From: an uncultured Gammaproteobacteria bacterium
GTDB lineage: Bacteria; Pseudomonadota; Gammaproteobacteria; Competibacterales; JAHEDQ01
Length of the DNA: 64,000 nucleotides
NCBI GenBank assembly: GCA_963783675.1
Contig: CAWAOU010000024.1
Span: 256,295 to 320,294, forward strand
Direction: 5' to 3'
The translations under genes were made by a program, and so were the position numbers. Shown one piece after another: positions 9,861-56,807 of the stretch (positions within the stretch are counted from its first letter, which is position 1; every line of letters begins with the position of its first letter). The notes under the pieces are model-generated. The model worked only from the letters and a program-made list of their open reading frames with translations, made no database searches and had not been told where the DNA came from.

Positions 9861-9966
9861 ACCCGTTCCGTCAGTCAGGGAGAAACCGCCATCTCGCCAC
9901 GAGTATCGCCCAGCCGTGGTCGGTAAGGGTGGATCAGGGCGGGGCTTGTATGTTTACTGAGCGATC

Positions 9967-10530
9967 GTGAGCCTGCCGGTAACCCAGTTGCGCCGCATCC
10001 GCCATATCCTGTTGGCTGGGGGGGTGGTGGCATACCCGACCGAGGGCGTCTATGGCCTTGGCTGTAATCCCGCTGATGGAAGGGCGGTCGCTCGTGTACT
10101 CAGATTGAAGCAGCGGTCGCTGAGCAAAGGCCTGATTTTGGTCGCATCGCGGTTTCAGCAGCTCGATCACTATCTGGCGCCCGTGACGTCGGACATTGCC
10201 CAGCGCGCGTTTGCGGTTTGGCCGGGACCCGTGACCTGGCTCTGGCCCGCACGCCCATGGGTGCCGATCTGGCTGCGCGGGCACCATACGAGCCTGGCCG
10301 TTCGGGTCACTGATCATCCGGTGGTGGCGGCTTTGTGTGATGCACTGGGCGGCCCGCTGGTGTCTACCAGCGCAAACAGAAGCGGTCGCCCGCCCGTCCG
10401 ATCGAGACATGTACTCAGACGTCGCTTCGGACGTCAGGTGGACGCCATCGTGCCCGGCGCATGCGGCGACCTGGGGCGTCCGTCGGAGATTCGCGAGCTG
10501 CTCAGCGACACCGTGGTTCGACCGAGGTAG
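9967..10530 (+). CDS. tsaC: L-threonylcarbamoyladenylate synthase TsaC (YrdC/Sua5 domain)
   Basis: YPTEGVYGLGC and STSANRSG motifs. 187 aa. GTG start as given by the track. Confidence 0.85.
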   Translation: MSLPVTQLRRIRHILLAGGVVAYPTEGVYGLGCNPADGRAVARVLRLKQRSLSKGLILVASRFQQLDHYLAPVTSDIAQRAFAVWPGPVTWLWPARPWVPIWLRGHHTSLAVRVTDHPVVAALCDALGGPLVSTSANRSGRPPVRSRHVLRRRFGRQVDAIVPGACGDLGRPSEIRELLSDTVVRPR

Positions 10531-11460
<930 letters not shown>

Positions 11461-11481
11461 GATTGCTGAATGCCTCAGCAA

Positions 11482-11496
11482 GCGCCCTTTGGGCGC
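11482..11496 (+). terminator. Weak hairpin after hemF
   Basis: GCGCCC-ttt-GGGCGC lies 22 nt after the hemF stop and is followed by ctatgatctgttct, which is only moderately T-rich. Confidence 0.3.
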
Positions 11497-11517
11497 CTAT
11501 GATCTGTTCTGGACTGC

Positions 11518-11683
11518 CTAGCGTAGTGTCTCCTAAATAACTTAACACCTGCGCTGGCCCTCGCGGTCCCTGACGGCGTTGCGGATCGTCGCAATAGCGC
11601 TGGCTATTCCTCCTCACCGCGCCTTGTCAGGAACCACGATGCCTAAGCTCAACCATCAAGGTATTTGGAAGACACTACACTAG
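11518..11683. mobile_element. MITE-like element with 22-bp terminal inverted repeats
   Basis: Left end ctagcgtagtgtctcctaaata (11518-11539). Right end tatttggaagacactacactag (11662-11683). 19 of 22 positions are complementary. The 166-bp element has no ORF. Confidence 0.65.
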
Positions 11684-11997
11684 ATTCACGGGGCAGATTG
11701 CGTGTCGCAGGCATTCCGTCCCAGTATCTGCAACGTTGCGGCTGTGCATTTCAGTCCCAAGATGCACATTTACGAATCAATCAGAGGCTCACTAGAATAG
11801 GGAAGAGACCCCTTTGGGATTCGGGGTATCGGTCCGCAGGCTTGGAGGCGCGTGCCTAAATGAGTCCATCCCGCGCCAAATTGTCATCAAACGTCTCAGG
11901 CCCTGCCCGCGGCAAATGGCCCGACCCCGGCTTACGCTGGCTGATCCTGACCTGTTGTGTTCGACCGGGTTGAGTGGTGGCCACACGCCGGGTGCTC

Positions 11998-13461
11998 ATG
12001 GCCACGCGATTTGCCGTCCCCATGGCCTGTGTTCTGGCGGGCTGTGCAACCTCGCCCCAAGCCCCGAAGAAGATTCAGAAAACCCCAGGCACGGTTGATT
12101 GCGTCACCCTGATCGAATCCGTCGACAAAAGCGTTGCCGGTGTAGGACGACGCTGGCCCAGCGCCCATCCCATACCCGGGTACCCGGGTTTGCGCAGCGA
12201 TCGGTTTCTGGCTGCGATCGGCGAGTCCGCGGTCGAACCCGCCACCGCAGGCGTGTGGCTCGATGCACTGCGGGATTTGGATCGCCATGCCCGACAGCTG
12301 GAACTGCCGCGTCTGCCGGCTTCGGATCGAGCGCGCTTGAAACCGCCGGGTGCTTCGCTGGCATCAGCTGTCGAGTCCTGTGCCGAGCGACTCAAGGCAG
12401 CGCTTGCGACCGATCAAGACAGTCTTTCCCATCTGGTCGAGGCCGCCCGGGTGCCGGACGACTACTCTACCGTCGCGCGCACGCTCGGATTGTATCCGCT
12501 CACCATGATCCCGGTCGCCGAAGGTGTGCGCCGTTTGCACAATCGGACCCGCGATCGATTTGCACATCCCAGCGGGGATCCCGGCGTCGGAGCGCGTTGG
12601 GTGCGATACGGCCTTTCGGAGCCACCGCCCGATGCACAGCTCGCTGTCTCCAATCGGTTTGATGTTCTGGGTCGCCCCAGCTTGAGCAAGGCGCATCTGC
12701 AAGCCTTGTTCACACAGCATGCGCCGATCTGGGAGATTGCCGACGGTGGCGACTACGATCGGCCGGGTGAGCCCTTCTGGCAGGGCCCGGCCGTGCCCGG
12801 GCTGCGCACCGGCGATGTCGTTATCTATACCTATCCGTCCTGGGCCCTCTGGCACCAGCAGGTTTTGTTGCAACTCAACTATGTTATCTGGTTCAGCGAG
12901 CGACCTTCGGCCGGGCCGCTGGATATACTGGCCGGTCCGCTGGATGGTCTGCTATGGCGGGTTACGCTGTTGCCGGATGGCCGGCCTCTGGTCTATGACA
13001 GCATCCATCCCTGCGGTTGCTATCACATGTTGTTTCCCAAACCGGGGCTCCAGTTGACCGCGTCCGCATTGGAACAGCCGGAACCGCCGCTGATCGCCGC
13101 GCCCGCGCCCTCCTGGCAGCCCAGTACCCGCGTTGTACTCAAGATCGCAACGCGCACCCACTATCTGAGCGGGGTCCATCGGGATTCGGCCGGGTGGGAT
13201 CAAAGCTATCGACTGCAGGCCTACGACGTGCTCGACCAGACGCCCGATGGGGATGGTCTTCCGGTGGGACTGTTTGCCCCCGATGGATTGGTGCCCGGGA
13301 CCGTCCGGCCCGAACGCTTTGTACTCTGGCCCATGGGCATCGCCTCGGCGGGTGCGATGCGTGCCCGGGGGCGGCAGCCGGTGGCGTTTATCGGGCGGCG
13401 CCACTTTGATGACCCGTTCCTGTTCCAGAACATGTTTCGGCTGCCGAGCGCCGACCCATAG
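11998..13461 (+). CDS. Hypothetical lipoprotein
   Basis: Track ORF 11974..13461 trimmed to the ATG at 11998. Lipobox MATRFAVPMACVLAGCATS. Third-position GC is high throughout. I recognise no family. Confidence 0.6.
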   Translation: MATRFAVPMACVLAGCATSPQAPKKIQKTPGTVDCVTLIESVDKSVAGVGRRWPSAHPIPGYPGLRSDRFLAAIGESAVEPATAGVWLDALRDLDRHARQLELPRLPASDRARLKPPGASLASAVESCAERLKAALATDQDSLSHLVEAARVPDDYSTVARTLGLYPLTMIPVAEGVRRLHNRTRDRFAHPSGDPGVGARWVRYGLSEPPPDAQLAVSNRFDVLGRPSLSKAHLQALFTQHAPIWEIADGGDYDRPGEPFWQGPAVPGLRTGDVVIYTYPSWALWHQQVLLQLNYVIWFSERPSAGPLDILAGPLDGLLWRVTLLPDGRPLVYDSIHPCGCYHMLFPKPGLQLTASALEQPEPPLIAAPAPSWQPSTRVVLKIATRTHYLSGVHRDSAGWDQSYRLQAYDVLDQTPDGDGLPVGLFAPDGLVPGTVRPERFVLWPMGIASAGAMRARGRQPVAFIGRRHFDDPFLFQNMFRLPSADP

Positions 13462-13493
13462 CAGTCAGCCCTCGACGTAGCTGCAGTGCTTGC

Positions 13494-14918
13494 TCATGAT
13501 CCGGAAGGGTTGGTGAATCGGTTGTTGAGTTGTTGAACATAATCATCGCAAGCCGCCAGCACGTCGCTCACGATACGCTGGCTTCCGCGCCCCCAGCCAA
13601 CAGGTGATTTTTGAAACAGGCTGCGTGTCCAGCGGGTATTGCGTTTGAATGCCCGGACCATGTCGCCTGGCGTGTCCGGCCCTATTTCCGCGTGCAGCCC
13701 TTTCAAAACCCGGTTTGCCGCCACCCTGCGAAAGCGGTAGTGAATGTAGACTGCGGTCAGCAGCAAAGCGGCAGCGCCGACCACGGTCAGCAGCCCGCCA
13801 CCGCCCACGGCGGTCACCGCACCGGTGATGCTTTCGGGATTGGCCAGTGCAGCCCCACCCAGGGCCGCCACCACCAGTCCTGCCACGATCCCATCGTAGG
13901 TCCAGACCCGTTTACGCCATTTGTCCGTCAGCACCCGAATGTTTGGTACAGACCGGTTCTCCAGGCCCTTGGCGGTCTCTTCCAAGGCCCCGATGATTCG
14001 ATAGGCGCGTTCCACTTCCACCTGATGCATCCGACCGTGAATCTCCGCAAGATCCTCATCACGCTTGGTCTGAAAGCGCCTTCTTAGCGCCTCGTCTTCG
14101 ATCGGCGCGGCAGCGTCCTCGTTGTAGATTCGATAGAAACGCCCGGCGGTCAGGCCAGATGACGCCAGCGCACGTTGCCACGCGGCGACAACCTCCTCCG
14201 GATTGTCCTCACGCGCGGTGGTGTCGATTTGATTCAGGATGTATATGAACTTGCCTGAATCCGAGCGCTGGATGCTGTCCGACACCAGATGTTGCAGCGT
14301 ATCTCGCATGGCGCCTGGCTCCGGATGGCGTGCGTCAAAAAACACCAGCACCAGATCCGACAAACCGATGATGTGATCGGTAATGCGCAGTGTCGCATCG
14401 CGTTGCGCATCGGCATCGAAGCCGGGAGAATCGATCAGGATCTTTCCCTTCAGCGCTTGGCTCGGGCTCGTCTTGAGCTGCAGATAGGCATCGATTCGAT
14501 TGCCCTCGCCCTCGGACACTTCTTCGATATCTCGACTGATCCGGTAGAACGGAAATCGGGGATCGGCGTCCAGCGCCACGCCCGGGAGCACACGGCTTTC
14601 GGATTCATTGCTGAAACAGACCACGGTAAAGCGGTCGTCCACCGCCTGGTTGCCGGTCAGTTGCAGTTTCGTGCCCAGGAACGTATTGATAAAACTGGAT
14701 TTTCCCGCTGAAAACGTACCGAGAATCGCAATTACCGGCCACCAGGGCACACGGGTTGCGAACGATTCCGCAGGGTCCAGCAGCCCCAGTCGTCGCCCCA
14801 CTTTGTCCAGTTGACGAAAGCTTTTCACCACCTGCAACAGGATCGGATTCTCCTGCTCCAAGTGCGTTTCAAGTGTACGCAGGCGCTTCTCTATCTGGGA
14901 TTCCCGCTGATCTGACAT
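13494..14918 (-). CDS. Membrane-anchored dynamin-like/EHD-like GTPase
   Basis: P-loop GTFSAGKSSFINTFLG, G3 motif DSPGFD and G4-like motif LNQID. C-terminal hydrophobic hairpin GIVAGLVVAALGGAALA...GGGLLTVVGAAALLLTAVYIHY. Start moved to the ATG at 14918 (MSDQRESQIEKRL). Confidence 0.75.
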   Translation of the reverse strand: MSDQRESQIEKRLRTLETHLEQENPILLQVVKSFRQLDKVGRRLGLLDPAESFATRVPWWPVIAILGTFSAGKSSFINTFLGTKLQLTGNQAVDDRFTVVCFSNESESRVLPGVALDADPRFPFYRISRDIEEVSEGEGNRIDAYLQLKTSPSQALKGKILIDSPGFDADAQRDATLRITDHIIGLSDLVLVFFDARHPEPGAMRDTLQHLVSDSIQRSDSGKFIYILNQIDTTAREDNPEEVVAAWQRALASSGLTAGRFYRIYNEDAAAPIEDEALRRRFQTKRDEDLAEIHGRMHQVEVERAYRIIGALEETAKGLENRSVPNIRVLTDKWRKRVWTYDGIVAGLVVAALGGAALANPESITGAVTAVGGGGLLTVVGAAALLLTAVYIHYRFRRVAANRVLKGLHAEIGPDTPGDMVRAFKRNTRWTRSLFQKSPVGWGRGSQRIVSDVLAACDDYVQQLNNRFTNPSGS

Positions 14919-15113
14919 GCATCTCCACCTGGGTCGAAAACGGCGTCCCATGTTAACGGCAATCGCGAACCGGCGGGAGACCGGTCCGCGTCGGACCCGT
15001 CGCCGATGCGGCGTTCTGATTCGGTTTCAGGCATTATGTATCAATATTTCAATCGCCTGCATGCGTTCTGGACCCGTCGATGGGCTGCTGCGCAGTCAGG
15101 CAGGAAAGTGATC

Positions 15114-15971
15114 ATGAGCGGCTCACGAAAAGCGCTGGGTTTTGGCTTGGTTGTGGTGCTGGCAGCGGTCGGGGCTTTCGCCTGGCGCGACAGCGGGCTG
15201 TCATTACAGGAGACGCTGGACAGCGGCCTGAACAGGTTGGCGGAGGTGACGGGGATCCCGTTGGTCAGGGATTCCAGTTCCGGCAAGGCCCTTGAGGATT
15301 TGACGGAAGTAGATGCCACATTGCGCACGAGCGCAATCCACGGACCTCAGGAGCCTTCAGCATCGTCCGGGCAAACCGCAGCTGCAATCGAATCTGGCTC
15401 ACCGAGCATGGACGTCGCCGCGTTGGAAGCCCGGACCCTGAACCGACCCGCCGAGGCTGACCAGGACAGCGCGGGCCTGGGTGTTCCCGCCAGCCCGGTA
15501 GATTCATCGGTTTTAGCGGACGATGGCCAGGACGTTGCCCGTGTGTTTCAGGGTGCCCGGCGTCTGGCCGCGGGTTTTAGCACCGAACGCGATTTAATCC
15601 GGGTCCATTTCCCGCTGGATCAGGACATCCTGACGCCAGAAGCCCAGGAGCGCCTGCGTGCCCTTGTCACGCGGCTGAATGAGGCTGAAGCGGTGCATCG
15701 AATTCGCATTGACGGTCACTGTGATGACACCGGCAGCGACCTGTACAACCAGTCGTTGTCCGAGCGGCGCGCCGCAACCGTCAAAAACTATTTGTACGGA
15801 CACGGAATCGCGGCGCGAGAGATCAGCCTACGCGGACATGGTGAACGGGTGCCGCTGATGATCACCGGTGATGAAGATGCTCGTGCCATCAATCGCCGCG
15901 CCGAGATTCTCGTCGAATGGGTGCGGAGCGATAGTCAGTCGCCCGCCCGGGTCGCCGAAACCGAGGATTGA
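15114..15971 (+). CDS. OmpA-domain protein with N-terminal membrane anchor
   Basis: ATG at 15114 is preceded by aggaaag. TM anchor LGFGLVVVLAAVGAFAW. Ser/Ala/Pro-rich linker. OmpA_C motif IDGHCDDTGSDLYNQSLSERRAATVKNYL...NRRAEILV. Confidence 0.8.
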   Translation: MSGSRKALGFGLVVVLAAVGAFAWRDSGLSLQETLDSGLNRLAEVTGIPLVRDSSSGKALEDLTEVDATLRTSAIHGPQEPSASSGQTAAAIESGSPSMDVAALEARTLNRPAEADQDSAGLGVPASPVDSSVLADDGQDVARVFQGARRLAAGFSTERDLIRVHFPLDQDILTPEAQERLRALVTRLNEAEAVHRIRIDGHCDDTGSDLYNQSLSERRAATVKNYLYGHGIAAREISLRGHGERVPLMITGDEDARAINRRAEILVEWVRSDSQSPARVAETED

Positions 15972-16000: not shown

Positions 16001-17170
16001 TCATCGACTGGTTATTTTCAGCTCGATTCGGCGGTTGCGCCGCATCGACAGCGGATCGGTGCCGGTTTCTATCGGTTGGTATTCTCCCATGCCAACGGCC
16101 GCCAATCGTTCTGGGGGAATCCCTTGATCGATCAGATAGTTCACCACCCCCAGCGCGCGATAGAACGAAAGCTCCCAGTTCGAGCCAAAGCGCACGGTGT
16201 TGATCGGGATGGCGTCGGTGTGTCCCTGGACCTCTATGATCACCGGCAGATCAGGCGGCAACTGGGCCTGAATCTGGCGATAAACCTGGGCAAACTTGTC
16301 CAGGTCCTCGCGTCCGCCAAGCGTGAGATCGGCTTCGGCGGATGGAAACAGGACTTCGGATTGGAACACGAACCGATCGCCCACCACTTTGATGTCGGGG
16401 TTGTTGGCGAATACCTCCCGCAGCCGCCCGAAAAAATCGCTTGAGTACTGCTCCAGTTCCTCGACCCGATCGAGCAGACGCCGCTTGATCAGGGCGTCCA
16501 TTTCGTCTATTCGCGTCTGCTGGGTTTCAATCAGGGTGGCCTGCGCCAGCAGCTGGGCTTCACGCTCACCCAGCGCACGCTGGGTGAGCGATTCTTCTGT
16601 TCGCTGTTCCGACACCGTCTGACGGGCGCTGTATAGCGCGTTGTTCAGGCGGCTGAGTTTGAATTCGAGGTCCTTGAGACGCGCCGTCATCAGGGCGATC
16701 TCACTCGCGCTGACCTCAACTTGCTGCTCGGCCTGAGCCTGGGCCAGAGTCGACGCCTCCAGCAGCTGAAGCCGAGCCGCCAGCTCCGCCAGCAGTCGCT
16801 CGCGCTCATCCACCACCTCATCCAGGCTGCGCGACAGCAATCCCTCCCGTTCGCGTGCCTGCTGAAGCTCCCTGGATACCTCAGCCACCGTATTCTCGCT
16901 GGCAGCCAGTCGAGCCCGGACTTGGTCGATGAGTGTCTTGAGCGCGTCGTTCTCGGCATCTGACTCGCCAACCAGCTGCTCGAGGCCGTCGATGATCTGC
17001 GCGAGCTGATCGATGGCCGTGTTCTTGCCCGAAAGCTCGCGGCCAATCAATACTTCGCCGATGACGAACACCGTGATGAGGAAAATCAGCACCACGACAA
17101 GGCCACCGAGCACGTCCGTGAACGCGGGCCAGATGTTGAAACTGCCAGGCCCCTCAGCCCTGCGACGCAT
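16001..17170 (-). CDS. MotB/OmpA-family protein with ~210-aa coiled-coil spacer (stator B-type subunit)
   Basis: N-terminus FNIWPAFTDVLGGLVVVLIFLITVFVI has an Asp preceding a single TM, as in MotB/ExbD/TolR. A long E/Q/L/R/A-rich heptad-like region follows. C-terminus GHTDAIPI...NWELSFYRALGVVNYL...NRRIELKI is an OmpA/MotB peptidoglycan-binding domain. Confidence 0.8.
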   Translation of the reverse strand: MRRRAEGPGSFNIWPAFTDVLGGLVVVLIFLITVFVIGEVLIGRELSGKNTAIDQLAQIIDGLEQLVGESDAENDALKTLIDQVRARLAASENTVAEVSRELQQAREREGLLSRSLDEVVDERERLLAELAARLQLLEASTLAQAQAEQQVEVSASEIALMTARLKDLEFKLSRLNNALYSARQTVSEQRTEESLTQRALGEREAQLLAQATLIETQQTRIDEMDALIKRRLLDRVEELEQYSSDFFGRLREVFANNPDIKVVGDRFVFQSEVLFPSAEADLTLGGREDLDKFAQVYRQIQAQLPPDLPVIIEVQGHTDAIPINTVRFGSNWELSFYRALGVVNYLIDQGIPPERLAAVGMGEYQPIETGTDPLSMRRNRRIELKITSR

Positions 17171-17173
17171 GTC

Positions 17174-18223
17174 TTACTCTTCCTTGTTGAGCAGGCGGGC
17201 CAGCAGATGCAGATCGTGGCGCAACGCGCTGGTGCGATCCTGCTCCAGGGTCATCAAGGTGTCTCTCAAAGACTCGATCCGATCGTTCAGACCGCCGATC
17301 TGCTCGTTGAGACGGTTTACGCCGAGTCCATCGCGGGTCAGGGACTCCAGGATGCCCGCCACGCTGTCCAGCCGGTCGCCGGCGTTGCTCAGCAACGCGC
17401 TCAGGTAGGCCGGGGCAACGGCGACTCCCGTGCCGCCAGTGGCTGCCTGCGGTTTGTGCCAAAGCGGAATGAGGTCGCTGACCACCAGGCTTTCCAAACG
17501 GGCATGCAGGTTGTTCTGGGCGTGAAACAGTTGAAGCTCCAGAAACGCCAGGACCAGTGAGGACAGCAGACCGAACAACGATGAGGAGAACGCCACGCTC
17601 ATACCATCCAGGGGCGTCGCAAGCCGCTCCTTGAGGCCCACCAGCAGCTCCATGGTATCGGCATCCGAACTGGCGCTGAGGTTGCCCAGCACATCACGAA
17701 CGCCGCCGATGGTGACCAGCAGCCCGTAAAAAGTGCCAATCAGTCCCAGCAGGACCAGGGCTCCGGTCAGGTACCGCACCAGAGCGCGTCGATCCTCGGC
17801 ATGGGCCGCTACCGAGTCCAGCATGTACGGCAGGGTGGCGCTTGTCTCTCCCTGGCTCAGCACCCGGTGAACCGTGCGCAGAAAGTCACCGACGCCGCTG
17901 TGGGACGGGCCAAGCAGGATCTCGTTGACATGCTCCAGCGGTTTGTTGCCGGCCTGCACCTCCGCCACCAGGGCGGTGGCATGCGCGGCGGCCCTGGAGA
18001 CTCGGAACACGTTGTACAGCGCCACAAAGGTGTACGCTACGCCAAACGCAAGCGTCGCCAGTATGGTGCCGTTCAGAATCGGGTTGGATTGAACCCCGTT
18101 GACCAATTCCGTTCGCGAAAGGAAAGCCAGCACGGCCAGCACGGTTAGAAAAATAAGCGAGCGGGTCAGGTAGCGGATGTCGCCTCCGCCGCTGGCCTGT
18201 GCTCCTTGTCTCGCGCCCAGCAT
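17174..18223 (-). CDS. MotA/TolQ/ExbB-family proton-channel protein with C-terminal coiled-coil tail (stator A-type subunit)
   Basis: Four hydrophobic helices. LLGLIGTFYGLLVTIGG and MSVAFSSSLFGLLSSLVLAFLE resemble the TM3/TM4 motifs of this family. About 110-aa helical tail (...NEQIGGLNDRIESLRDTLMTLEQDRTSALRHDL...). Good SD (ggagga) before the ATG at 18223. The stop is 3 nt from the next gene's start. Confidence 0.75.
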   Translation of the reverse strand: MLGARQGAQASGGGDIRYLTRSLIFLTVLAVLAFLSRTELVNGVQSNPILNGTILATLAFGVAYTFVALYNVFRVSRAAAHATALVAEVQAGNKPLEHVNEILLGPSHSGVGDFLRTVHRVLSQGETSATLPYMLDSVAAHAEDRRALVRYLTGALVLLGLIGTFYGLLVTIGGVRDVLGNLSASSDADTMELLVGLKERLATPLDGMSVAFSSSLFGLLSSLVLAFLELQLFHAQNNLHARLESLVVSDLIPLWHKPQAATGGTGVAVAPAYLSALLSNAGDRLDSVAGILESLTRDGLGVNRLNEQIGGLNDRIESLRDTLMTLEQDRTSALRHDLHLLARLLNKEE

Positions 18224-18634
18224 GGTTCAATCCTCCGTTCCTTTGAGCATCCCAGCAATGCGAATCGCGCACCTTGCCACGCGGCGGCGGTGAGTGTGAG
18301 CGGGTTCCGGGCTGATTATAGCCAGAGTGGTGCACACGACTCACCCGCACTTGTCACAGGCGTGGCCGCCCATAGCGGGGGAAATGGGCCCCAAGCCGAA
18401 ATTTCGTGCGCTCCAGAGGCGTTACGGCTAGCCTAAGCTGTGGTGAGGTGAAAGCCGAGTGGTATTTCCACGCCGCCCGAGGGGCCTCGCGGTGGCATGT
18501 CGAAGCCGGATCGTCGACTGCGCTGGCGGTTTGGCCGGGGGGCGGAGCATACGGTTGTGGACTGTGGCCGTGGGGGTATCATTGGCTCAGGTTCTCCCTG
18601 ACCAGATTTTTCCAGTGGATTGAGCGGACAGCAT

Positions 18635-19846
18635 ATGACAAGTCGCGTTCACGGGGCGCGGATTCTCGTTTACAGCCACGACACCTTTGGTCTCGGTCAT
18701 CTCCGCCGTTGCCGCGCCATCGCCCATTCCATGGTCGAGGCGTACAAGGGCCTGTCGGTGCTCATCCTGTCCGGTTCCCCGATCATCGGCAGCTTCGATT
18801 TTCGAGCGCGTGTGGACTTTGTGAGGATTCCAGGCGTCATCAAGCTGCACAACGGAGAGTACACCTCCCTCGGTTTGCATATCGATCTGGAACAGACCCT
18901 CGCCATGCGTGCTTCGATCATTCAGCACACAGCCAGCATATTCGCCCCGGATGTGTTCCTGGTGGACAAAGAACCGCTGGGGCTCAAGGGGGAGGTGCGA
19001 GAAACACTGGCGATGCTGAAGGCGCGGGGCACGACCTGCATCCTCGGTCTGCGCGATGTCATGGACGAACCTTTGCTGTTGCGCCGTGAGTGGGAGCGCA
19101 AGAAAGTGGCCCCGGCGCTGGAGCGCCTCTACGATGAAATCTGGGTGTACGGCTTGCCGCAGATCGCCGATCCGCTGGAGGGGATCGAGGTAAGCGATGC
19201 GGTGCGTCGGAAGATGGTCTACACCGGCTATCTGCCCCGGGGGGTGCCTCAATCCGGGGATCTGAACGTACCTGCCCCGGTGCAAGCACCATATGTTCTG
19301 GTGACGCCGGGGGGGGGCGGGGATGGAGCCACCTTGGTCGACTGGGTGTTGCGGGCCTACGAGGCGGCGCCGGATTTGCCGCAGCCTGCGCTGGTGGTAT
19401 TGGGGCCGTTCATGCCGCCCGTTGAACAGCGGGCCTTCCAGGACCGGATCGATGTTCTGGACAAAGTGGAGGTGCTGACGTTTGATGCCCATGTGGAGGT
19501 ACTGATGGCCCGGGCATCGGGTGTGGTGGCCATGGGCGGCTACAATACGTTCTGTGAGATCCTGTCTCTGGACAAGCCGGCGATACTGGTTCCCCGCTCC
19601 CGACCTCGCCGCGAGCAATTGATACGGGCCACCCGGGCGCAAGACCTGGGGTTGGTGCGCATGCTCGATCCCGATGCCAGCAGTGCGGTGGAGCTGATGA
19701 TCGAAGCATTGCGCGCGCTGCCGGCGCAAAAACCGCCTTCCCAGGTTTGTGTGCCTGGTTTGCTGGATGGCCTGGACAAGGTGAATCGGTTGGTCGGCCA
19801 GCACCTGGGTGAACCTGCAGCGCGGGCTCAGACATCCTTCGCCTGA
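18635..19846 (+). CDS. GT-B glycosyltransferase (MurG/GT28-like, COG4671-type)
   Basis: N-terminus RILVYSHDTFGLGHLRRCRAIAH. Glycine loop VTPGGGGDG. Family recalled, not searched. The ATG at 18635 is preferred to the TTG at 18620. Confidence 0.6.
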   Translation: MTSRVHGARILVYSHDTFGLGHLRRCRAIAHSMVEAYKGLSVLILSGSPIIGSFDFRARVDFVRIPGVIKLHNGEYTSLGLHIDLEQTLAMRASIIQHTASIFAPDVFLVDKEPLGLKGEVRETLAMLKARGTTCILGLRDVMDEPLLLRREWERKKVAPALERLYDEIWVYGLPQIADPLEGIEVSDAVRRKMVYTGYLPRGVPQSGDLNVPAPVQAPYVLVTPGGGGDGATLVDWVLRAYEAAPDLPQPALVVLGPFMPPVEQRAFQDRIDVLDKVEVLTFDAHVEVLMARASGVVAMGGYNTFCEILSLDKPAILVPRSRPRREQLIRATRAQDLGLVRMLDPDASSAVELMIEALRALPAQKPPSQVCVPGLLDGLDKVNRLVGQHLGEPAARAQTSFA

Positions 19847-19871
19847 TTCCACGCATCCTCTGATTCAAGCC

Positions 19872-21029
19872 ATGGCTTACGGCCGCGTGTTTCTTTATGT
19901 CCAGCATCTGTTGGGCGTCGGTCATCTGCAGCGGGCGCTTCGGATCGCAGCTGAGTTGGCGCACCACGGTGTGCCGGTGACTCTGGTCAGCGGCGGCATG
20001 CCCATTGAGCCGTCGATCCCTGAGGGCATCGACTGGGTGCAGCTGCCGCCGCTGCGCGCGGCCGATGCCCGTTTCAGCGACTTGGTCGACGTCAATGGGC
20101 ACGCGGTGGATGAAGCGTGGCGCACAACCCGCCTTCGCCGCCTTTTGAGGGCCTTCGAAGATGCCGAACCGCAACTCCTGATCACAGAGACCTTTCCGTT
20201 CGGGCGCAGGCAGATGCGTTTTGAGTTGCTGCCGCTGCTGCGGGCGGCGCATCGGCAATCGCCGCGTCCGATGGTGGTCTCATCCGTGCGAGACGTGTTG
20301 CAGAGCGGCCGTAAGCCTGGTCGGGTGGATGAGGCTGCGGCTTGGGCGGAGCGCTTTTACGATCGGATCCTGGTGCATGGGGATCCCCGTGCGATCCGTT
20401 TTGAAGAGACCTTCGCCCCGGCAGATAGACTGGCGAGGCGCATCCACTACACCGGCTATGTGGGTGCAGGAGTGCCTCCGTTCAGCCCGGTTGGCAACGG
20501 TGAGGTGATCGTCTCTGCCGGCGGGGGCGCGGTCGGGGCCAGACTGCTTGAGACTGCGCTGGCGGCGCGCCCATTGAGCCGGGCCAGATCAATGCCCTGG
20601 CGTCTGCTGGCGGGACACAGCTCCAATCCGGACGCGTTACGGTCCCTGCGCCGCAACGCCGGAGTCGGGGTTACGGTAGAGTCTTCGCGCGCCGACTTTC
20701 CGGCATTGCTGGCCAACGCACGCCTGTCCATCTCCCAGGGGGGCTACAACACACTGATGGATATCCTTCAGGCCAGAGCCAGGGCGGTGGTGGTTCCGTT
20801 CGCTGGCGATGGCGAAACCGAGCAGACGTTTCGCGCTGCACGCTTTGCCGAAATGGGTTTCTTCAGCGTACTGCAGGAGGCTGCGCTCAATGCTGTGGCA
20901 CTGGCACATGCGGTGGATGCGGCCTTGATGCGCCCCCGGCCGGACACCACCCGCATCAATCTGCAAGGCGCCGCCGACAGCGCCGCGCTGTTGGCGGGTT
21001 GGGTTCGCGGCGCGGACGCCCATGTCTGA
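19872..21029 (+). CDS. GT-B glycosyltransferase, paralogue of the preceding gene
   Basis: N-terminus RVFLYVQHLLGVGHLQRALRIAA parallels that of 18635..19846. Glycine loop VSAGGGAVG. C-terminus ISQGGYNT resembles AMGGYNT of the paralogue. Confidence 0.6.
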   Translation: MAYGRVFLYVQHLLGVGHLQRALRIAAELAHHGVPVTLVSGGMPIEPSIPEGIDWVQLPPLRAADARFSDLVDVNGHAVDEAWRTTRLRRLLRAFEDAEPQLLITETFPFGRRQMRFELLPLLRAAHRQSPRPMVVSSVRDVLQSGRKPGRVDEAAAWAERFYDRILVHGDPRAIRFEETFAPADRLARRIHYTGYVGAGVPPFSPVGNGEVIVSAGGGAVGARLLETALAARPLSRARSMPWRLLAGHSSNPDALRSLRRNAGVGVTVESSRADFPALLANARLSISQGGYNTLMDILQARARAVVVPFAGDGETEQTFRAARFAEMGFFSVLQEAALNAVALAHAVDAALMRPRPDTTRINLQGAADSAALLAGWVRGADAHV

Positions 21030-55502: not shown

Positions 55503-56807
55503 ATGACAACTGAGTCGAACAATGCCCATGCTTCGGTAGTAACGACGTTTCGTCCGCGACGTTGGCTGCAGGTGTTGGTGCCGATTCTCATTCTGGCTGG
55601 GTCCTTCGCGGCGTTTTCGGCACTCAAGGCGACCCGTGCTACCCCGCCGCCGGTGGAGGTGGTGGAAAAGGCCTGGTTGGTTCAAACCCTGAGTGTCACA
55701 CCCGGTCTGCTGGCGCCTGATCTGGTGCTTTACGGGCGGGTTGAGTCGCCTCGGTCGGCCACCCTGTCTGCGGCAGTCAGTGCCGATGTGCTGGAAGTGC
55801 CCGCTCGGGAAGGTATGGTTGTGTCTCCGGGTGATTTGTTGGTGGCATTGGACCGGCGGGATCTACAGTTTGATCTGACACAGCGCGAAGCCGACATGGC
55901 GGAAGCCGAGGCGGAGATCGTCAGTGAGCAAACCCGATATCAGGCGGATCTTGACGCGCTCAAGCTTGACGAGCGCCTGCTTGCCCTGACCCAGAATGAG
56001 GTGAATCGGCTGGTCAATCTCCAGCAACGCGGCCTGGGGTCGGAATCCCAGCGTGATACCGCACGCAAGGCGTTGGAGCAGCAGGGCATGTCGGTGATCA
56101 GCCGTAAGCAGGCGCTGCAGGACCACGACGCGCGGATGCGCAGCCTGCAAGCCCGATTGGATCGGGCCCGCGCCAGTCGGGACCAGGCGGCGCTCGACCT
56201 GGAACGAACCCGCATCACTGCCCCGTTCAGGGGGCGTGTCACCCGCGTCCACACCTCGCCCGGAAACCGGGTCAGAATCGGGGACAGTCTGCTGGAGTTG
56301 TACGACACCAGTGCTGTGGAAGTGCGCGCCCAGGTTCCGTCTCGTCAGTTGGGGTCAGTCAAGCAGGCGCTGGCCGCCTCCGGCATGCTCCTCGCCCGCG
56401 CCCAGGTGGACGGTCGCGAGGTGGAGATGGTTTTGGATCGGCTTGCGGGCAAAGCCGATGCCGCCAGTGGGGGTATCGATGCGCTGTTTCGCGTGCTGTC
56501 GGAGGACGGCGCGCAGCTCACCATCGGGCGGGTGGTGACGGTGACTTTGCAAACCACGCCTCTGGAAGACGTGGTGGCGCTTCCATACGAAGCCCTGTAT
56601 GGACTCGATACCATTTATCGTCTTGACGGTGAGCGGATGCAGGCGGTGCAGGTCGAAAACGTGGGTGAGCAACGTCGGGGCGGCACGCGCCCCGTGGTCC
56701 TGCTGCGTGCCCCAGATCTGAGACCGGGTGACCAAGTGGTGGTCACCCAGCTTCCCAATGCCGTCTCCGGCCTCAAAGTCACCGTGGCCGAGACCGGCCG
56801 CGACTGA
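55503..56807 (+). CDS. Efflux RND transporter periplasmic adaptor (HlyD/MFP family)
   Basis: N-terminal TM. Coiled-coil hairpin region (EAEAEIVSEQTRYQADL...). ITAPFRGRVTRV lipoyl/beta-barrel motif. Immediately upstream of the RND pump gene. Confidence 0.85.
   Translation: MTTESNNAHASVVTTFRPRRWLQVLVPILILAGSFAAFSALKATRATPPPVEVVEKAWLVQTLSVTPGLLAPDLVLYGRVESPRSATLSAAVSADVLEVPAREGMVVSPGDLLVALDRRDLQFDLTQREADMAEAEAEIVSEQTRYQADLDALKLDERLLALTQNEVNRLVNLQQRGLGSESQRDTARKALEQQGMSVISRKQALQDHDARMRSLQARLDRARASRDQAALDLERTRITAPFRGRVTRVHTSPGNRVRIGDSLLELYDTSAVEVRAQVPSRQLGSVKQALAASGMLLARAQVDGREVEMVLDRLAGKADAASGGIDALFRVLSEDGAQLTIGRVVTVTLQTTPLEDVVALPYEALYGLDTIYRLDGERMQAVQVENVGEQRRGGTRPVVLLRAPDLRPGDQVVVTQLPNAVSGLKVTVAETGRD

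What the first reader, a model, noticed from the sequence alone, without database searches (positions are those of the whole stretch)
16001..18223. Orphan MotA/MotB-type stator pair in which both subunits carry long coiled-coil extensions
Seen in sequence:
- 17174..18223 encodes 349 aa with four hydrophobic helices. The last two carry MotA/ExbB/TolQ-like motifs (LLGLIGTFYGLLVTIGG; MSVAFSSSLFGLLSSLVLAFLE).
- These helices are followed by a ~110-aa heptad-like charged tail.
- Three nt downstream, 16001..17170 encodes 389 aa. It has an N-terminal TM preceded by Asp (WPAFTDVLGG...), at the position of the protonatable Asp of MotB/ExbD/TolR.
- That TM is followed by about 210 aa of uninterrupted E/Q/L/R-rich coiled-coil-like sequence and a C-terminal OmpA/MotB peptidoglycan-binding domain.
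- No flagellar, TonB, Tol-Pal or gliding genes are nearby.

Established: MotAB, PomAB, ExbBD, TolQR, AglRQS, GldLM and ZorAB are related 5:2 ion-driven rotary motors. In Zorya the A-subunit C-terminal tail is the output element. In GldLM the B-type subunit projects across the periplasm.

Inference: this pair is a non-flagellar ion-driven motor with both a cytoplasmic tail and a periplasm-spanning coil. That architecture matches none of the named families I know. Its function (envelope surveillance, defence or mechanical coupling) is open.
Basis: partly seen in the sequence, partly recalled or inferred. Interest (0 to 1): 0.78.

Follow-up and report, generated by a model that had tools for sequence, protein, structure and literature searches.

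The report
Unstudied SiiAB/MotAB-like motor with periplasmic stalk
This two-gene unit encodes a probable proton-driven membrane motor, anchored to the cell wall by a long rigid stalk, that is conserved in at least about 600 proteobacterial species, has no published function that I could find, and has the Salmonella adhesin-control channel SiiAB as its closest studied relative.

Summary
Two translationally coupled genes on the minus strand encode A (349 aa) and B (389 aa).
- A has four TM helices, a MotA/ExbB/ZorA-type TM3-TM4 core and a conserved ~114-aa tail.
- B has an invariant WPAFTD Asp at the TM start, a ~200-residue continuous helix and a MotB/MotS-type peptidoglycan-binding domain.
- B's coil is genuine. 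The Asp-to-OmpA spacing across 120 homologues falls on a +3/+4 ladder (24 of 26 distinct lengths in two mod-7 classes, p<=3e-10).

The pair is not a one-off.
- A has 2,928 50%-identity cluster representatives and occurs in >=594 reference species of Alpha-, Beta- and Gammaproteobacteria, including Sinorhizobium meliloti.
- B follows A in 62 of 63 long loci.
- No third gene co-varies; in Alphaproteobacteria the context is efp-suhB-A-B.
- B falls in NCBIfam PRK09039, a family with a name but no function. A has no Pfam or NCBIfam model.

It is not a flagellar stator, Zorya, ExbBD or TolQR. That is a distant sister family, and no type I secretion genes are linked here.

Best reading: a housekeeping proton-driven 5:2-type motor anchored to the wall. 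Its output is unknown.

The parts
17174..18223 (-). Gene A: 349-aa, 4-TM, MotA/ExbB/SiiB-like channel subunit
   Evidence: ORF and translation. There are 147 close homologues and 2,928 cluster representatives. The top 50 Foldseek matches are all ExbB, TolQ, ZorA or MotA chains. Match to SiiB: E=1e-15.
18231..18236 (-). GGAGGA Shine-Dalgarno-like sequence, 7 nt upstream of the ATG of A
   Evidence: Read directly from the sequence.
18005..18184 (-). A residues 14-73: TM1, short periplasmic loop (conserved NPxLNG), TM2
   Evidence: Hydropathy, conservation, model helices 14-35, 37-46 and 48-90. This stretch aligns with SiiB residues 1-60.
17774..18004 (-). A residues 74-150: compact cytoplasmic loop with two short helices; conserved LPYxLDS and DxRRAxVRYL
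   Evidence: Model and alignment. The loop is much smaller than a flagellar torque-generating interface as described in PMC12505986.
17519..17773 (-). A residues 151-235: TM3, a ~30-aa periplasmic loop, TM4. This is the putative ion-path core, with invariant T164 and S215.
   Evidence: Pfam MotA_ExbB 15.5 bits over residues 152-216. PADLOC ZorA3 3e-11 over residues 147-226. Invariant columns.
17177..17518 (-). A residues 236-349: cytoplasmic tail with a linker and two helices; conserved motif around L319, E327, R330, T331
   Evidence: Tail length is nearly constant within clades. Weak similarity to the C-terminus of SiiB (E=0.002).
16001..17170 (-). Gene B: 389-aa MotB/SiiA-like subunit of the PRK09039 family
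   Evidence: NCBIfam NF006543 scores 285.8 bits over residues 2-389.
17114..17131 (-). B residues 14-19: WPAFTD, the invariant Asp at the cytoplasmic start of the TM helix
   Evidence: Invariant in 34 of 34 aligned homologues. The motif W-P-[GAS]-[FYW]-[VT]-D is found in 70 of 80 loci. SiiA carries WPSFVD13, and D13N abolishes H+ flux in SiiAB (bioRxiv 10.1101/641415).
17042..17170 (-). B residues 1-43: basic N-terminus and TM helix
   Evidence: Hydropathy and model helix 15-43.
16994..17041 (-). B residues 44-59: conserved post-TM segment (R44, E45, I53, Q55, L56), a candidate plug or periplasmic interface
   Evidence: Conservation and low pLDDT. The plug role is inferred by analogy with MotB.
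16409..17008 (-). B residues 55-254: about 200 residues of continuous alpha-helix, inferred to form a parallel dimeric coiled coil (~30 nm)
   Evidence: Model helix H55-254, no proline, and length variation quantised in a/d steps.
16004..16393 (-). B residues 260-389: MotB/MotS-type OmpA-like peptidoglycan-binding domain (invariant G316, H317, T318, D319 and N331, W332, L334, S335, R338)
   Evidence: Pfam OmpA. PDB profile hits: MotS 5e-24, MotB 2.5e-22, PomB 5e-17. Foldseek best matches are MotS and MotB.

Best explanation
A and B form an inner-membrane, ion-conducting MotAB/SiiAB-type complex. The ion is probably H+, and the stoichiometry is most likely A5B2.

Proposed mechanism:
- The two B TM helices, each carrying the invariant Asp19, sit inside a ring of A subunits. 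The invariant hydroxyl residues of A (T164 in TM3, S215 in TM4) line the ion path.
- B continues into the periplasm as a rigid parallel two-stranded coiled coil. It is about 30 nm long here and about 20-95 nm across the family. It ends in a MotB-type domain that binds peptidoglycan.
- B is therefore the wall-anchored stator. Ion flow drives A to rotate, or to switch conformation, around B.
- The short conserved cytoplasmic tail of A is the part that acts on, or is regulated by, a cytoplasmic or inner-membrane partner.
- The module is a vertically inherited housekeeping system of the proteobacterial envelope. It is not a motility or defence system.

Shown here: gene structure, homology, conserved residues, a genuine coiled coil, a MotB-type wall-binding domain, obligate A-B pairing, and core genomic context.

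Inferred: 5:2 stoichiometry, proton use, rotation, which end is the output, and the physiological role.
For: - A fold: the top 50 PDB matches are all A-subunits of 5:2 motors.
- A core: it matches ZorA and MotA_ExbB models over TM3-TM4.
- A is homologous to SiiB across the whole TM domain (pairwise BLASTP E=1e-15; hhalign probability 98.4%).
- B shares the WPxFxD motif with SiiA. SiiAB conducts protons in a D13-dependent way and binds peptidoglycan (bioRxiv 10.1101/641415).
- The Asp and the TM3/TM4 motif residues are invariant in the close families, and T164/S215 are at least 90% conserved across 24-30% identical homologues.
- The peptidoglycan-binding domain is of MotS/MotB/PomB type, with conserved GHTD...NWELS..R.
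- Coil: one ~200-residue helix, no proline, and spacing quantised at +3/+4 (24 of 26 distinct values in two mod-7 classes, p<=3e-10; in the wider family 18 of 28 in one class, p<=1.3e-8).
- Pairing: B follows A in 62 of 63 long loci and 70 of 80 loci overall.
- Core context: efp-suhB-A-B in 34-38 loci and in S. meliloti.
- Mobile elements: none of 50,697 phage records holds a true homologue (the only hits are SiiB). The only true homologues in the 72,556-record plasmid collection are two chromosome-sized Sinorhizobium records.
Against: - No complex prediction or experiment was possible, so stoichiometry, ion flux and rotation rest on homology.
- A is very diverged. It is below the Pfam MotA_ExbB threshold (15.5 bits against 22.9), a profile search of PDB sequences found no motor at E<=1, and the best Foldseek E-value is only 1e-3.
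- A 30-95 nm rigid coil is longer than the distance from the inner membrane to the peptidoglycan (textbook envelope dimensions). The simple 'perpendicular stator' geometry therefore cannot hold for many members.
- No output partner is identified.
Confidence: 0.6

Rival explanations
1. It is a SiiAB-type accessory unit. It would use the proton gradient to modulate an ABC exporter or type I secretion system encoded elsewhere in the genome, with the A tail contacting the transporter's ATPase domain as SiiB contacts SiiF.
For: - SiiB/SiiA are the closest characterised homologues.
- SiiB binds the ABC transporter SiiF in two-hybrid assays (PMC12607715).
- In S. meliloti and about 13 other alphaproteobacterial loci, an MsbA-related ABC exporter (TIGR02204, 882-941 bits) lies within 5 kb downstream of B, and is directly convergent in five of them including S. 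meliloti.
Against: - No HlyD, TolC or giant-adhesin gene is conserved near the pair in 63 loci.
- The ABC neighbour is restricted to Alphaproteobacteria, is convergent (so not co-transcribed), and is absent next to the window's pair.
- SiiB scores 62 bits against the A-family profile, versus 361 bits for a true member. SiiA matches B only over the TM.
- B's architecture differs from SiiA: a coiled coil and a canonical MotB-type motif, versus a disordered linker and a degenerate motif.
Confidence: 0.15
2. It is a Tol/Ton-like force transducer in a single B polypeptide. The motor would pull on or twist the B coiled coil, so that the periplasmic stalk and its wall-binding head are the working output (for example remodelling or tensioning inner membrane-wall contacts), and the A tail would be only structural or regulatory.
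For: - B combines the TM Asp of ExbD/TolR/MotB with a long helical periplasmic domain, as in gammaproteobacterial TolA domain II (PMC12204202), and a Pal/MotB-like wall-binding head.
- The coil is the most elaborated and most evolvable part of the system: the Asp-to-GHTD spacing is 246-730 residues.
Against: - The coil sequence is poorly conserved and its length varies about 4-fold. This suits a spacer better than a calibrated force-transmitting element.
- The A tail, in contrast, has conserved charged residues that suggest a specific interaction.
- In solved 5:2 motors the B dimer is the static axle (PMC9389320; PMC11946911).
Confidence: 0.12
3. It is a Zorya-like anti-phage sensor whose effectors are encoded elsewhere or are missing.
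For: The best PADLOC hits are ZorA3 (3e-11) and ZorB3 (1.3e-17). ZorA also has a cytoplasmic helical tail (PMC11946911).
Against: - The ZorA hits cover only about 80 residues of 650-1060-position profiles. NCBIfam ZorA_2 scores 22 bits against a cut-off of 100.
- The tail is 114 aa, versus about 500 aa (~70 nm) in ZorA.
- No ZorC-G gene or any defence gene is linked.
- The context is a stable housekeeping neighbourhood, with near absence from plasmids and phages. This is unlike defence islands.
Confidence: 0.04
4. It is a divergent flagellar stator paralogue.
For: B's C-terminal domain is most similar to MotS, MotB and PomB. Some database records call the homologues 'flagellar motor protein MotA' or 'chemotaxis protein MotB'.
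Against: - No MotA or PomA equivalog model matches A at E<=1.
- The TM2-TM3 loop is about 77 aa with two short helices, not the 4-5-helix torque-generating interface that defines flagellar stators (PMC12505986).
- B has a 200-aa proline-free coil in place of the Gly/Pro-rich plug and linker.
- No flagellar genes lie in the window or in 63 loci.
- It occurs in Komagataeibacter, a genus I recall as non-motile (the motility point is from memory).
Confidence: 0.03
5. It is a passive inner membrane-to-wall tether, with a degenerate channel that no longer conducts ions.
For: A is so diverged that standard models miss it. The long coil plus wall-binding head would suffice for tethering.
Against: The Asp is kept throughout (the W-P-x-x-x-D motif is present in 70 of 80 loci), and T164 and S215 are at least 90% conserved in homologues down to about 25% identity. 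A tether would not need these residues, and it would not need an obligately co-inherited 4-TM partner.
Confidence: 0.06

Closest known systems
SiiA/SiiB (Salmonella SPI-4 type I secretion accessory proton channel)
   Same: - A aligns with SiiB over TM1-TM4 (26% identity, pairwise E=1e-15, hhalign probability 98.4%). Shared motifs include NG in the first loop, LxGLxGTFxGLxxTIG, and PLxGMxxAFxSS.
- Both A-type subunits carry a helical cytoplasmic C-terminal extension.
- B and SiiA share the N-terminal WP(x)F(x)D motif with the proton-accepting Asp, followed by a TM, a spacer and a MotB-like peptidoglycan-binding domain.
   Different: - Gene order is reversed (A then B here; siiA, the B-type gene, then siiB).
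- No siiCDF/siiE-type secretion genes are linked.
- SiiA (210 aa) has a disordered ~40-aa linker and a degenerate wall-binding motif that binds only at acidic pH. B has a ~200-aa coiled coil and a canonical MotB-type motif.
- The SiiB tail is about 260 aa, versus 114 aa here.
- SiiB and SiiA score far below true family members (62 against 361 bits; 17 against 295 bits).
- SiiAB lies in a pathogenicity island, whereas this pair is a core gene pair in at least 594 species.
NCBIfam PRK09039 (NF006542-NF006546) 'peptidoglycan-binding protein'
   Same: B matches NF006543 end to end (residues 2-389, 285.8 bits). A close homologue of B (P0179) and the B partners of distant A homologues pass the curated cut-off (323-484 bits; a Rhizobiaceae protein scores 635 bits against NF006544).
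   Different: - The window's B is 19 bits below the cut-off, probably because its coil is longer.
- The NCBIfam family carries only a generic name, with no function and no mention of the MotA-like partner.
Flagellar stators MotAB / PomAB / MotPS
   Same: 4-TM N-in topology of A (inferred from hydropathy and flanking basic residues), the TM Asp in B, a MotB/MotS/PomB-type peptidoglycan-binding domain, and adjacent A-then-B gene order.
   Different: - No torque-generating cytoplasmic domain.
- No Gly/Pro-rich plug and linker.
- No MotA model match.
- No flagellar linkage.
Zorya ZorAB
   Same: The best defence-database hits over TM3-TM4 and over the wall-binding domain. The A subunit has a helical cytoplasmic tail, and the unit would be a wall-anchored 5:2 motor that is not part of a larger rotor.
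   Different: The tail is about 5-fold shorter and of fixed size. There are no ZorC-G effectors. It is not in defence islands. ZorB has no long coiled coil.
ExbBD-TonB / TolQR-TolA-Pal
   Same: The closest solved folds for A, with a hydroxyl-containing GT and S motif in the last two TMs. Functionally, B resembles a fusion of TolR (TM Asp), a TolA-like helical span and a Pal-like wall binder.
   Different: 4 TMs rather than 3. There is no ExbD/TolR periplasmic domain, no separate TonB/TolA with an SHLS motif, and no match to ExbB or TolQ equivalog models.

Membership tests
5:2 ion-driven motor superfamily (MotA/ExbB/TolQ/ZorA/SiiB plus partner) | A-subunit fold with the last two TMs lining the ion path | tested here: met
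   All of the top 50 Foldseek PDB matches are ExbB, TolQ, ZorA or MotA chains. There are sub-threshold MotA_ExbB and ZorA HMM hits on residues 147-228.
5:2 ion-driven motor superfamily (MotA/ExbB/TolQ/ZorA/SiiB plus partner) | Single-TM B subunit with a conserved acidic residue at the cytoplasmic end of the TM | tested here: met
   D19 is invariant, and the motif is present in 70 of 80 loci.
5:2 ion-driven motor superfamily (MotA/ExbB/TolQ/ZorA/SiiB plus partner) | A5B2 stoichiometry and ion-driven rotation | not testable with these tools
   No multimer prediction or experiment was available. Only monomer models were made.
SiiAB | Sequence homology of the A-type subunit to SiiB | tested here: met
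   BLASTP E=1e-15 over A 16-225 against SiiB 1-201. hhalign probability 98.35%, E=1.1e-14.
SiiAB | B-type subunit with SiiA architecture (TM, disordered linker, small wall-binding domain; 210 aa) | tested here: not met
   Only the TM segment aligns (B 10-44 against SiiA 4-38). B has a 200-aa helix and a MotB-type domain.
SiiAB | Genetic linkage to a type I secretion system and a giant adhesin (siiCDF, siiE) | tested here: not met
   The only HlyD-family gene found in the window (55503-56807) is adjacent to an AcrB-type RND pump and about 37 kb from the pair. No TolC or adhesin gene was found. None is conserved in 63 loci. Genome-wide co-occurrence was not testable.
SiiAB | Family-level profile score comparable to members | tested here: not met
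   SiiB scores 62 bits against 361 bits for S. meliloti A. SiiA scores 17 bits against 295 bits for S. meliloti B.
NCBIfam PRK09039 peptidoglycan-binding protein | Full-length match above the curated cut-off (NF006543, 305 bits) | tested here: inconclusive
   The window's B scores 285.8 bits over residues 2-389. The close relative P0179 scores 323.5 bits, and eight partners of distant A homologues score 354-484 bits, all passing.
Flagellar stator MotAB/PomAB | A subunit matches MotA/PomA equivalog models | tested here: not met
   No MotA or PomA model is listed at E<=1 in NCBIfam. Pfam MotA_ExbB is below the gathering score.
Flagellar stator MotAB/PomAB | Expanded cytoplasmic torque-generating interface of 4-5 helices between TM2 and TM3 (PMC12505986) | tested here: not met
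   The loop is about 77 aa with two short helices (96-104 and 111-123).
Flagellar stator MotAB/PomAB | MotB-type peptidoglycan-binding domain | tested here: met
   MotS 5e-24, MotB 2.5e-22, PomB 5e-17. Foldseek best matches are MotS and MotB.
Flagellar stator MotAB/PomAB | Linkage or co-occurrence with flagellar genes | tested here: not met
   No flagellar genes in the window or in 63 loci. Whole-genome co-occurrence was not tested.
Zorya ZorAB | Full-length ZorA match including the long (~500 aa) pentameric tail | tested here: not met
   PADLOC hits span only about 70-80 profile positions. NCBIfam ZorA_2 scores 22.2 bits against a cut-off of 100. The tail is 114 aa.
Zorya ZorAB | Adjacent effector genes (ZorC/D, ZorE or ZorF/G) | tested here: not met
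   The neighbours give no Zorya effector hit; the only ZorB hits are to the OmpA domain of the second OmpA gene. No conserved third gene.
ExbBD / TolQR | ExbB/TolQ and ExbD/TolR equivalog matches; 3-TM A subunit; TonB/TolA partner | tested here: not met
   No such NCBIfam or Pfam hits. A has four hydrophobic segments. B carries an OmpA domain instead of an ExbD fold. There is fold-level similarity only.
GldLM / PorLM | GldL/GldM family matches; periplasm-spanning GldM domains | tested here: not met
   No GldL, GldM, PorL or PorM hits at E<=1 in Pfam or NCBIfam. The periplasmic span is a coiled coil, not GldM-type domains.

The most novel reading that the evidence does not exclude
This would be a previously unrecognised core proton-driven rotary motor of the proteobacterial envelope, and the ancestral housekeeping form from which the SiiAB virulence module was recruited.
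- The wall-anchored B2 coiled coil, tuned in a/d steps from about 20 to 95 nm, would act as a long lateral tether or torsion element rather than a perpendicular strut.
- The conserved A tail would couple proton flow to an inner-membrane machine, such as an MsbA-type ABC exporter.
Probability: 0.2. Interest if true: 0.85.

Novelty: new variant of a known kind. Interest (0 to 1): 0.62.

Why it matters
**A possibly unstudied family.** Every characterised 5:2 motor family (flagellar stators, Ton, Tol, gliding/T9SS, Zorya, SiiAB) has turned out to power a distinct and important envelope process. This looks like another family.
- It is conserved in at least 594 species, including tractable ones such as Sinorhizobium meliloti, Azospirillum, Komagataeibacter and Thauera.
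- Its A subunit has no Pfam or NCBIfam model above threshold, and I found no paper about it.
- Because all A proteins tested fall just below the Pfam MotA_ExbB threshold, surveys seeded on that model would probably miss them.

**What it offers.**
1. An evolutionary context for SiiAB, whose mechanism is still open.
2. A natural series of stalk lengths (about 20-95 nm, stepped in coiled-coil core units). This could be used to ask how wall anchoring geometry gates or loads a 5:2 motor.
3. A directly testable genetic target: the TM Asp, the tail and the stalk length.

Tried and rejected
**Hypotheses considered and rejected**
- Zorya: rejected. HMM hits cover only the core, no effectors are linked, and the context is housekeeping.
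- Flagellar stator: rejected.
- ExbBD/TolQR: fold-level similarity only.
- A conserved third gene: clustering ORFs from 63 loci gave only EF-P, a SuhB-type IMPase and a ThiE-like protein (alphaproteobacterial synteny), plus antisense shadow ORFs.
- The 'ABC' cluster that included a window gene was an artefact of single linkage through ATPase domains. Only a subset of alphaproteobacterial loci have a real MsbA_rel neighbour.
- Correlation between A tail length and B coil length (Spearman 0.62) looks like clade structure, not coupling. The tail is about 201 or about 243 residues in the two main clades, whereas B varies widely.
- A sigma-70 promoter scan found nothing. The 'terminators' are weak matches inside coding sequence.
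- The dynamin-like neighbour is not part of the system. It is absent from the syntenic contig L001.

**Searches that returned nothing useful**
- A profile search of PDB sequences with A found no motor.
- Nine counted literature searches found no paper on this family. These covered PRK09039, MotAB-like plus coiled-coil terms, 5:2 motor surveys and S. meliloti accessions.
- The FIT/GIT survey (PMC12505986), the force-transducer survey (PMC12204202), the Zorya paper (PMC11946911) and the 2022 5:2-motor review (PMC9389320) do not describe it, as far as term searches of their text showed.

- An exact look-up of the dynamin-like protein found nothing.

Full report
**1. Observation**

A is 17174-18223(-), 349 aa. 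B is 16001-17170(-), 389 aa. They are separated by TAA-GAC-ATG, and each has a Shine-Dalgarno-like sequence upstream. GC3 is 77% for A and 73% for B, typical of real genes in this 61% GC window.

A has four hydrophobic segments at about residues 22-42, 52-73, 151-175 and 207-235.

B has several clear features:
- One TM helix.
- No proline from residue 16 to 257, in a stretch rich in L, E, A, R and Q.
- A Pfam OmpA domain at residues 274-380 (E=1.5e-15).

Monomer AlphaFold models were made for both.
- A (mean pLDDT 71) is all-helical. Its TM3 and TM4 helices run 127-182 and 190-255, followed by a low-confidence linker (257-270) and two tail helices (270-297 and 302-347).
- B (mean pLDDT 76) has a TM helix (15-43), one unbroken helix (55-254, pLDDT 82-94) and an alpha/beta domain (260-387).

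**2. The coiled coil is genuine**

I measured the number of residues between the WPAFTD motif and the GDRF[VI]FQS motif at the start of the OmpA domain.
- In 120 sequences (the window's B plus close homologues) this spacing takes 26 distinct values from 177 to 345.
- The values form a ladder of alternating +3 and +4 steps: 177, 180, 184, 187, 191, 194, 198, 201, 205, 208 and so on.
- 24 of the 26 values fall in two residue classes modulo 7. No other modulus from 2 to 11 shows such an enrichment. The binomial bound is p<=3e-10.
- In the wider family the Asp-to-GHTD spacing ranges from 246 to 730 residues. 18 of 28 distinct values fall in one class mod 7 (p<=1.3e-8).

Insertions and deletions therefore keep the a/d hydrophobic core in phase between the conserved N-terminal and C-terminal coil ends. 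This is the signature of a continuous coiled coil. Because the two B TM helices are parallel in every solved 5:2 motor, a parallel dimer is the natural inference.

At 0.1485 nm per residue, the coil is about 30 nm in this protein and about 20-95 nm across the family. The coil interior is poorly conserved in sequence, whereas both of its ends are conserved.

**3. What A is**

Standard libraries almost miss it:
- Pfam MotA_ExbB scores 15.5 bits against a threshold of 22.9, over residues 152-216.
- NCBIfam gives only a 22-bit ZorA_2 hit against a cut-off of 100.
- PADLOC ZorA models hit at 3e-11, but only over residues 147-228.
- Four of the six distant A-family proteins tested gave only sub-threshold MotA_ExbB hits, and the other two gave none.
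- A profile of the family finds no solved motor by sequence at E<=1.

The predicted fold is unambiguous at superfamily level. All 50 best PDB matches are ExbB, TolQ, ZorA or MotA chains (E from 1e-3, 13-19% identity).

Conserved residues are:
- Invariant in 39 close homologues: G160, L161, G163, T164, F165, G167, L168 in TM3, and G207, M208, F212, S215, L216, G218, L219 in TM4.
- Still invariant or at least 90% conserved in a 33-sequence alignment reaching 24-30% identity: G160, G163, T164, F165, G167, G207, S215, G218.

T164 and S215 sit in the positions of the hydroxyl residues that ring the B-subunit Asp in ExbB and TolQ. I matched these motifs by inspection from memory, so this equivalence is an inference.

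**4. What B is**

- The N-terminal W14-P15-A16-F17-T18-D19 is invariant.
- The C-terminal domain is closest, by profile, to MotS (5e-24), MotB (2.5e-22) and PomB (5e-17). By structure it is closest to MotS and MotB. It has invariant G316-H317-T318-D319 and N331-W332-x-L334-S335-x-x-R338.
- End to end, B matches NCBIfam NF006543 (PRK09039.1-2, 'peptidoglycan-binding protein') at 285.8 bits, just under the 305-bit cut-off.

**5. Distribution and context**

- A has 147 homologues at 50-97% identity in one database, all unnamed or 'hypothetical', mostly from Competibacteraceae and other Gammaproteobacteria.
- A profile search of 1.84 billion cluster representatives finds 2,928 at E<=1e-3 and 346 at E<=1e-30, mostly full length.
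These cover:
  - Alphaproteobacteria: Acetobacteraceae, Azospirillum, Rhodospirillales, Hyphomicrobiales, Caulobacterales, Kiloniella.
  - Betaproteobacteria: Thauera, Rhodocyclaceae.
  - Gammaproteobacteria: Competibacteraceae, Dokdonella and other Xanthomonadales.
- Among the 63 loci longer than 9 kb (62 fetched loci plus the window), A is present in all 63 and B directly follows it in 62. A motif scan finds B after A in 70 of the 80 fetched loci; the rest are mostly short contigs or loci where no A ORF was called.
- Eight B partners of distant A homologues all pass the PRK09039.1-2 cut-off (354-484 bits), and a close Competibacteraceae relative scores 323.5 bits. The window's pair is therefore the gammaproteobacterial branch of one A+B family.
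- Beyond the pair, the flanks differ between gammaproteobacterial contigs.
- In Alphaproteobacteria the recurrent neighbours are EF-P (34 loci), a SuhB-type inositol monophosphatase (38 loci) and a ThiE-like gene (19 loci). S. meliloti shows thiE-sel1-IMPase-A-B-(convergent ABC)-rpmE.
- No third gene tracks the pair.
- None of 50,697 phage records holds a true homologue. In the 72,556-record plasmid collection, the only true homologues are two chromosome-sized Sinorhizobium records.
- The window itself carries rsmB, fmt, def, dprA, topA, transporters and glycosyltransferases. I found no flagellar, Ton, Tol-Pal, gliding, T1SS-adhesin or Zorya effector genes.

**6. The closest characterised relative**

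The same tblastn searches hit Salmonella SPI-4 siiB.
- A aligns with SiiB over residues 16-225 against 1-201 (26% identity, pairwise E=1e-15). The profile comparison gives probability 98.35%, E=1.1e-14. This is far stronger than any link to ExbB, TolQ, MotA or ZorA.
- The last 32 residues of A resemble the C-terminus of SiiB (50% identity, pairwise E=0.002). This match is weak, because the shared 'LLNKEE' ending is not conserved even among close A homologues.
- B matches SiiA only over the TM (B 10-44 against SiiA 4-38), but the match includes the same WPSFVD13 motif.

Established facts about SiiAB are as follows.
- From bioRxiv 10.1101/641415: SiiAB conducts protons, and SiiA D13N impairs this. 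SiiA has a TM (14-38), a disordered linker (51-92) and a MotB-like domain. That domain binds peptidoglycan only at acidic pH and through a degenerate motif.
- From PMC12607715: SiiA and SiiB are dispensable for SiiE secretion but needed for invasion, and SiiB binds the ABC transporter SiiF.
- From bioRxiv 10.1101/2021.05.14.443827: SiiAB interacts with the chemoreceptor CheM.

By profile score, SiiAB lies outside this family. SiiB scores 62 bits against 361 for S. meliloti A, and SiiA scores 17 bits against 295 for S. meliloti B. NCBIfam has no model for SiiA, SiiB or the S. meliloti A protein.

**7. Mechanism**

The conserved Asp, the conserved hydroxyl-bearing TM3/TM4 motifs, the obligate A-B pairing and the homology to a proton-conducting complex together support an ion-conducting MotAB/SiiAB-type complex. 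It is probably A5B2.

B is wall-anchored through a MotB-type head at the end of a rigid dimeric stalk, so B is the stator and A is the moving part.

The two extensions behave differently across the family:
- The A tail has a fixed length within clades (about 201 residues from the TM3 motif to the C-terminus in Competibacteraceae, about 243 in Rhodospirillales). It carries invariant or near-invariant charged residues: R284, E293, R304, R320, E327, R330, E337, R339. This pattern suits a specific interaction surface.
- The B stalk is a spacer of variable length.

I therefore favour the A tail as the output or regulatory end, and the stalk as the element that sets the anchoring geometry.

One difficulty remains. 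Stalks of 30-95 nm exceed the distance from the inner membrane to the wall (textbook dimensions). Many members therefore cannot stand perpendicular to the membrane, and the stalk must be tilted or lie along the wall.

Stoichiometry, ion type, rotation and physiological role are all inferred, not shown. The housekeeping context argues for a core envelope function and against motility or defence.

**8. Novelty**

- I found no paper on this family in the searchable library (nine counted searches). That library excludes most subscription journals, so absence there is not proof.
- The A subunit has no Pfam or NCBIfam model. The B subunit has a curated model with a generic name.
- The 2025 FIT/GIT survey states that non-flagellar B subunits lack OmpA homology, and this pair contradicts that statement.
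- The family is best described as a new, uncharacterised variant within the MotAB/SiiAB branch of 5:2 motors. It is not categorically new.

Noticed in passing
window 9934-14951: Three genes lie between topA and the small OmpA gene: 9934-11241(-) and 11974-13461(+), neither with a Pfam hit, and 13494-14951(-), a dynamin-family GTPase with weak PADLOC LeoBC/LeoA (Eleos) hits at 1e-7. The otherwise syntenic contig L001 has coproporphyrinogen oxidase and Sua5 at this position instead. This looks like an inserted island, possibly defence-related.
   Followed up: partly
window 15006-15971 (+): A second OmpA-domain protein (321-aa ORF) is convergent with B, 29 nt from its stop. The likely real start is the internal MSGSRKALGFGLVVVLAAVGAF membrane anchor, followed by a long low-complexity linker. 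The gene is also present in the syntenic contig L001 (214 aa) but not in the wider family.
   Followed up: partly
L087 8038-9852 (S. meliloti); L028 11018-12886; L075 10582-12414; also L034 and L048: An MsbA-related ABC exporter (TIGR02204 'MsbA_rel', 882-941 bits against a cut-off of 780) lies convergent to B, overlapping it by 14 nt in S. meliloti and otherwise up to ~100 nt from its end, in five alphaproteobacterial loci, and within 5 kb in about nine more. Because SiiB binds the ABC transporter SiiF, this is a candidate partner for the A tail.
   Followed up: partly
L087 / record CP090106.1: This PLSDB record is titled 'Sinorhizobium meliloti strain Ak57 plasmid pSymB'. It is 3.72 Mb and carries rpmE, purE/purK and the thiE-suhB housekeeping block, so it is probably the chromosome mislabelled as a plasmid.
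   Followed up: no
window 30461-33115 (-): An 884-aa ABC exporter has a nucleotide-binding domain that appears split. The ABC_tran match stops at about residue 474 (profile positions 2-88 of 137), and NCBIfam matches resume at about residues 728-883. This implies an insertion of about 250 aa inside the ATPase domain. Two GT4 glycosyltransferase genes and a sulfotransferase gene lie on one side of it.
   Followed up: no
window 16563-16590: A perfect 12-bp inverted repeat (CGCTCACCCAGC GCAC GCTGGGTGAGCG) lies inside the coil-coding part of gene B. It may be chance or a regulatory or RNA-structure element.
   Followed up: no
window 18620-21029 (+): Two tandem GT28-family glycosyltransferase genes, overlapping by 38 nt, are transcribed divergently from gene A. 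The same arrangement occurs in the syntenic contigs L001 and L002 but not in the wider family.
   Followed up: no
L047 9213-11627; L056: Some Rhodospirillaceae B proteins reach about 800 aa, with an Asp-to-GHTD spacing of 720-730 residues. That corresponds to a predicted coil of about 95 nm, several times the usual width of a periplasm.
   Followed up: partly
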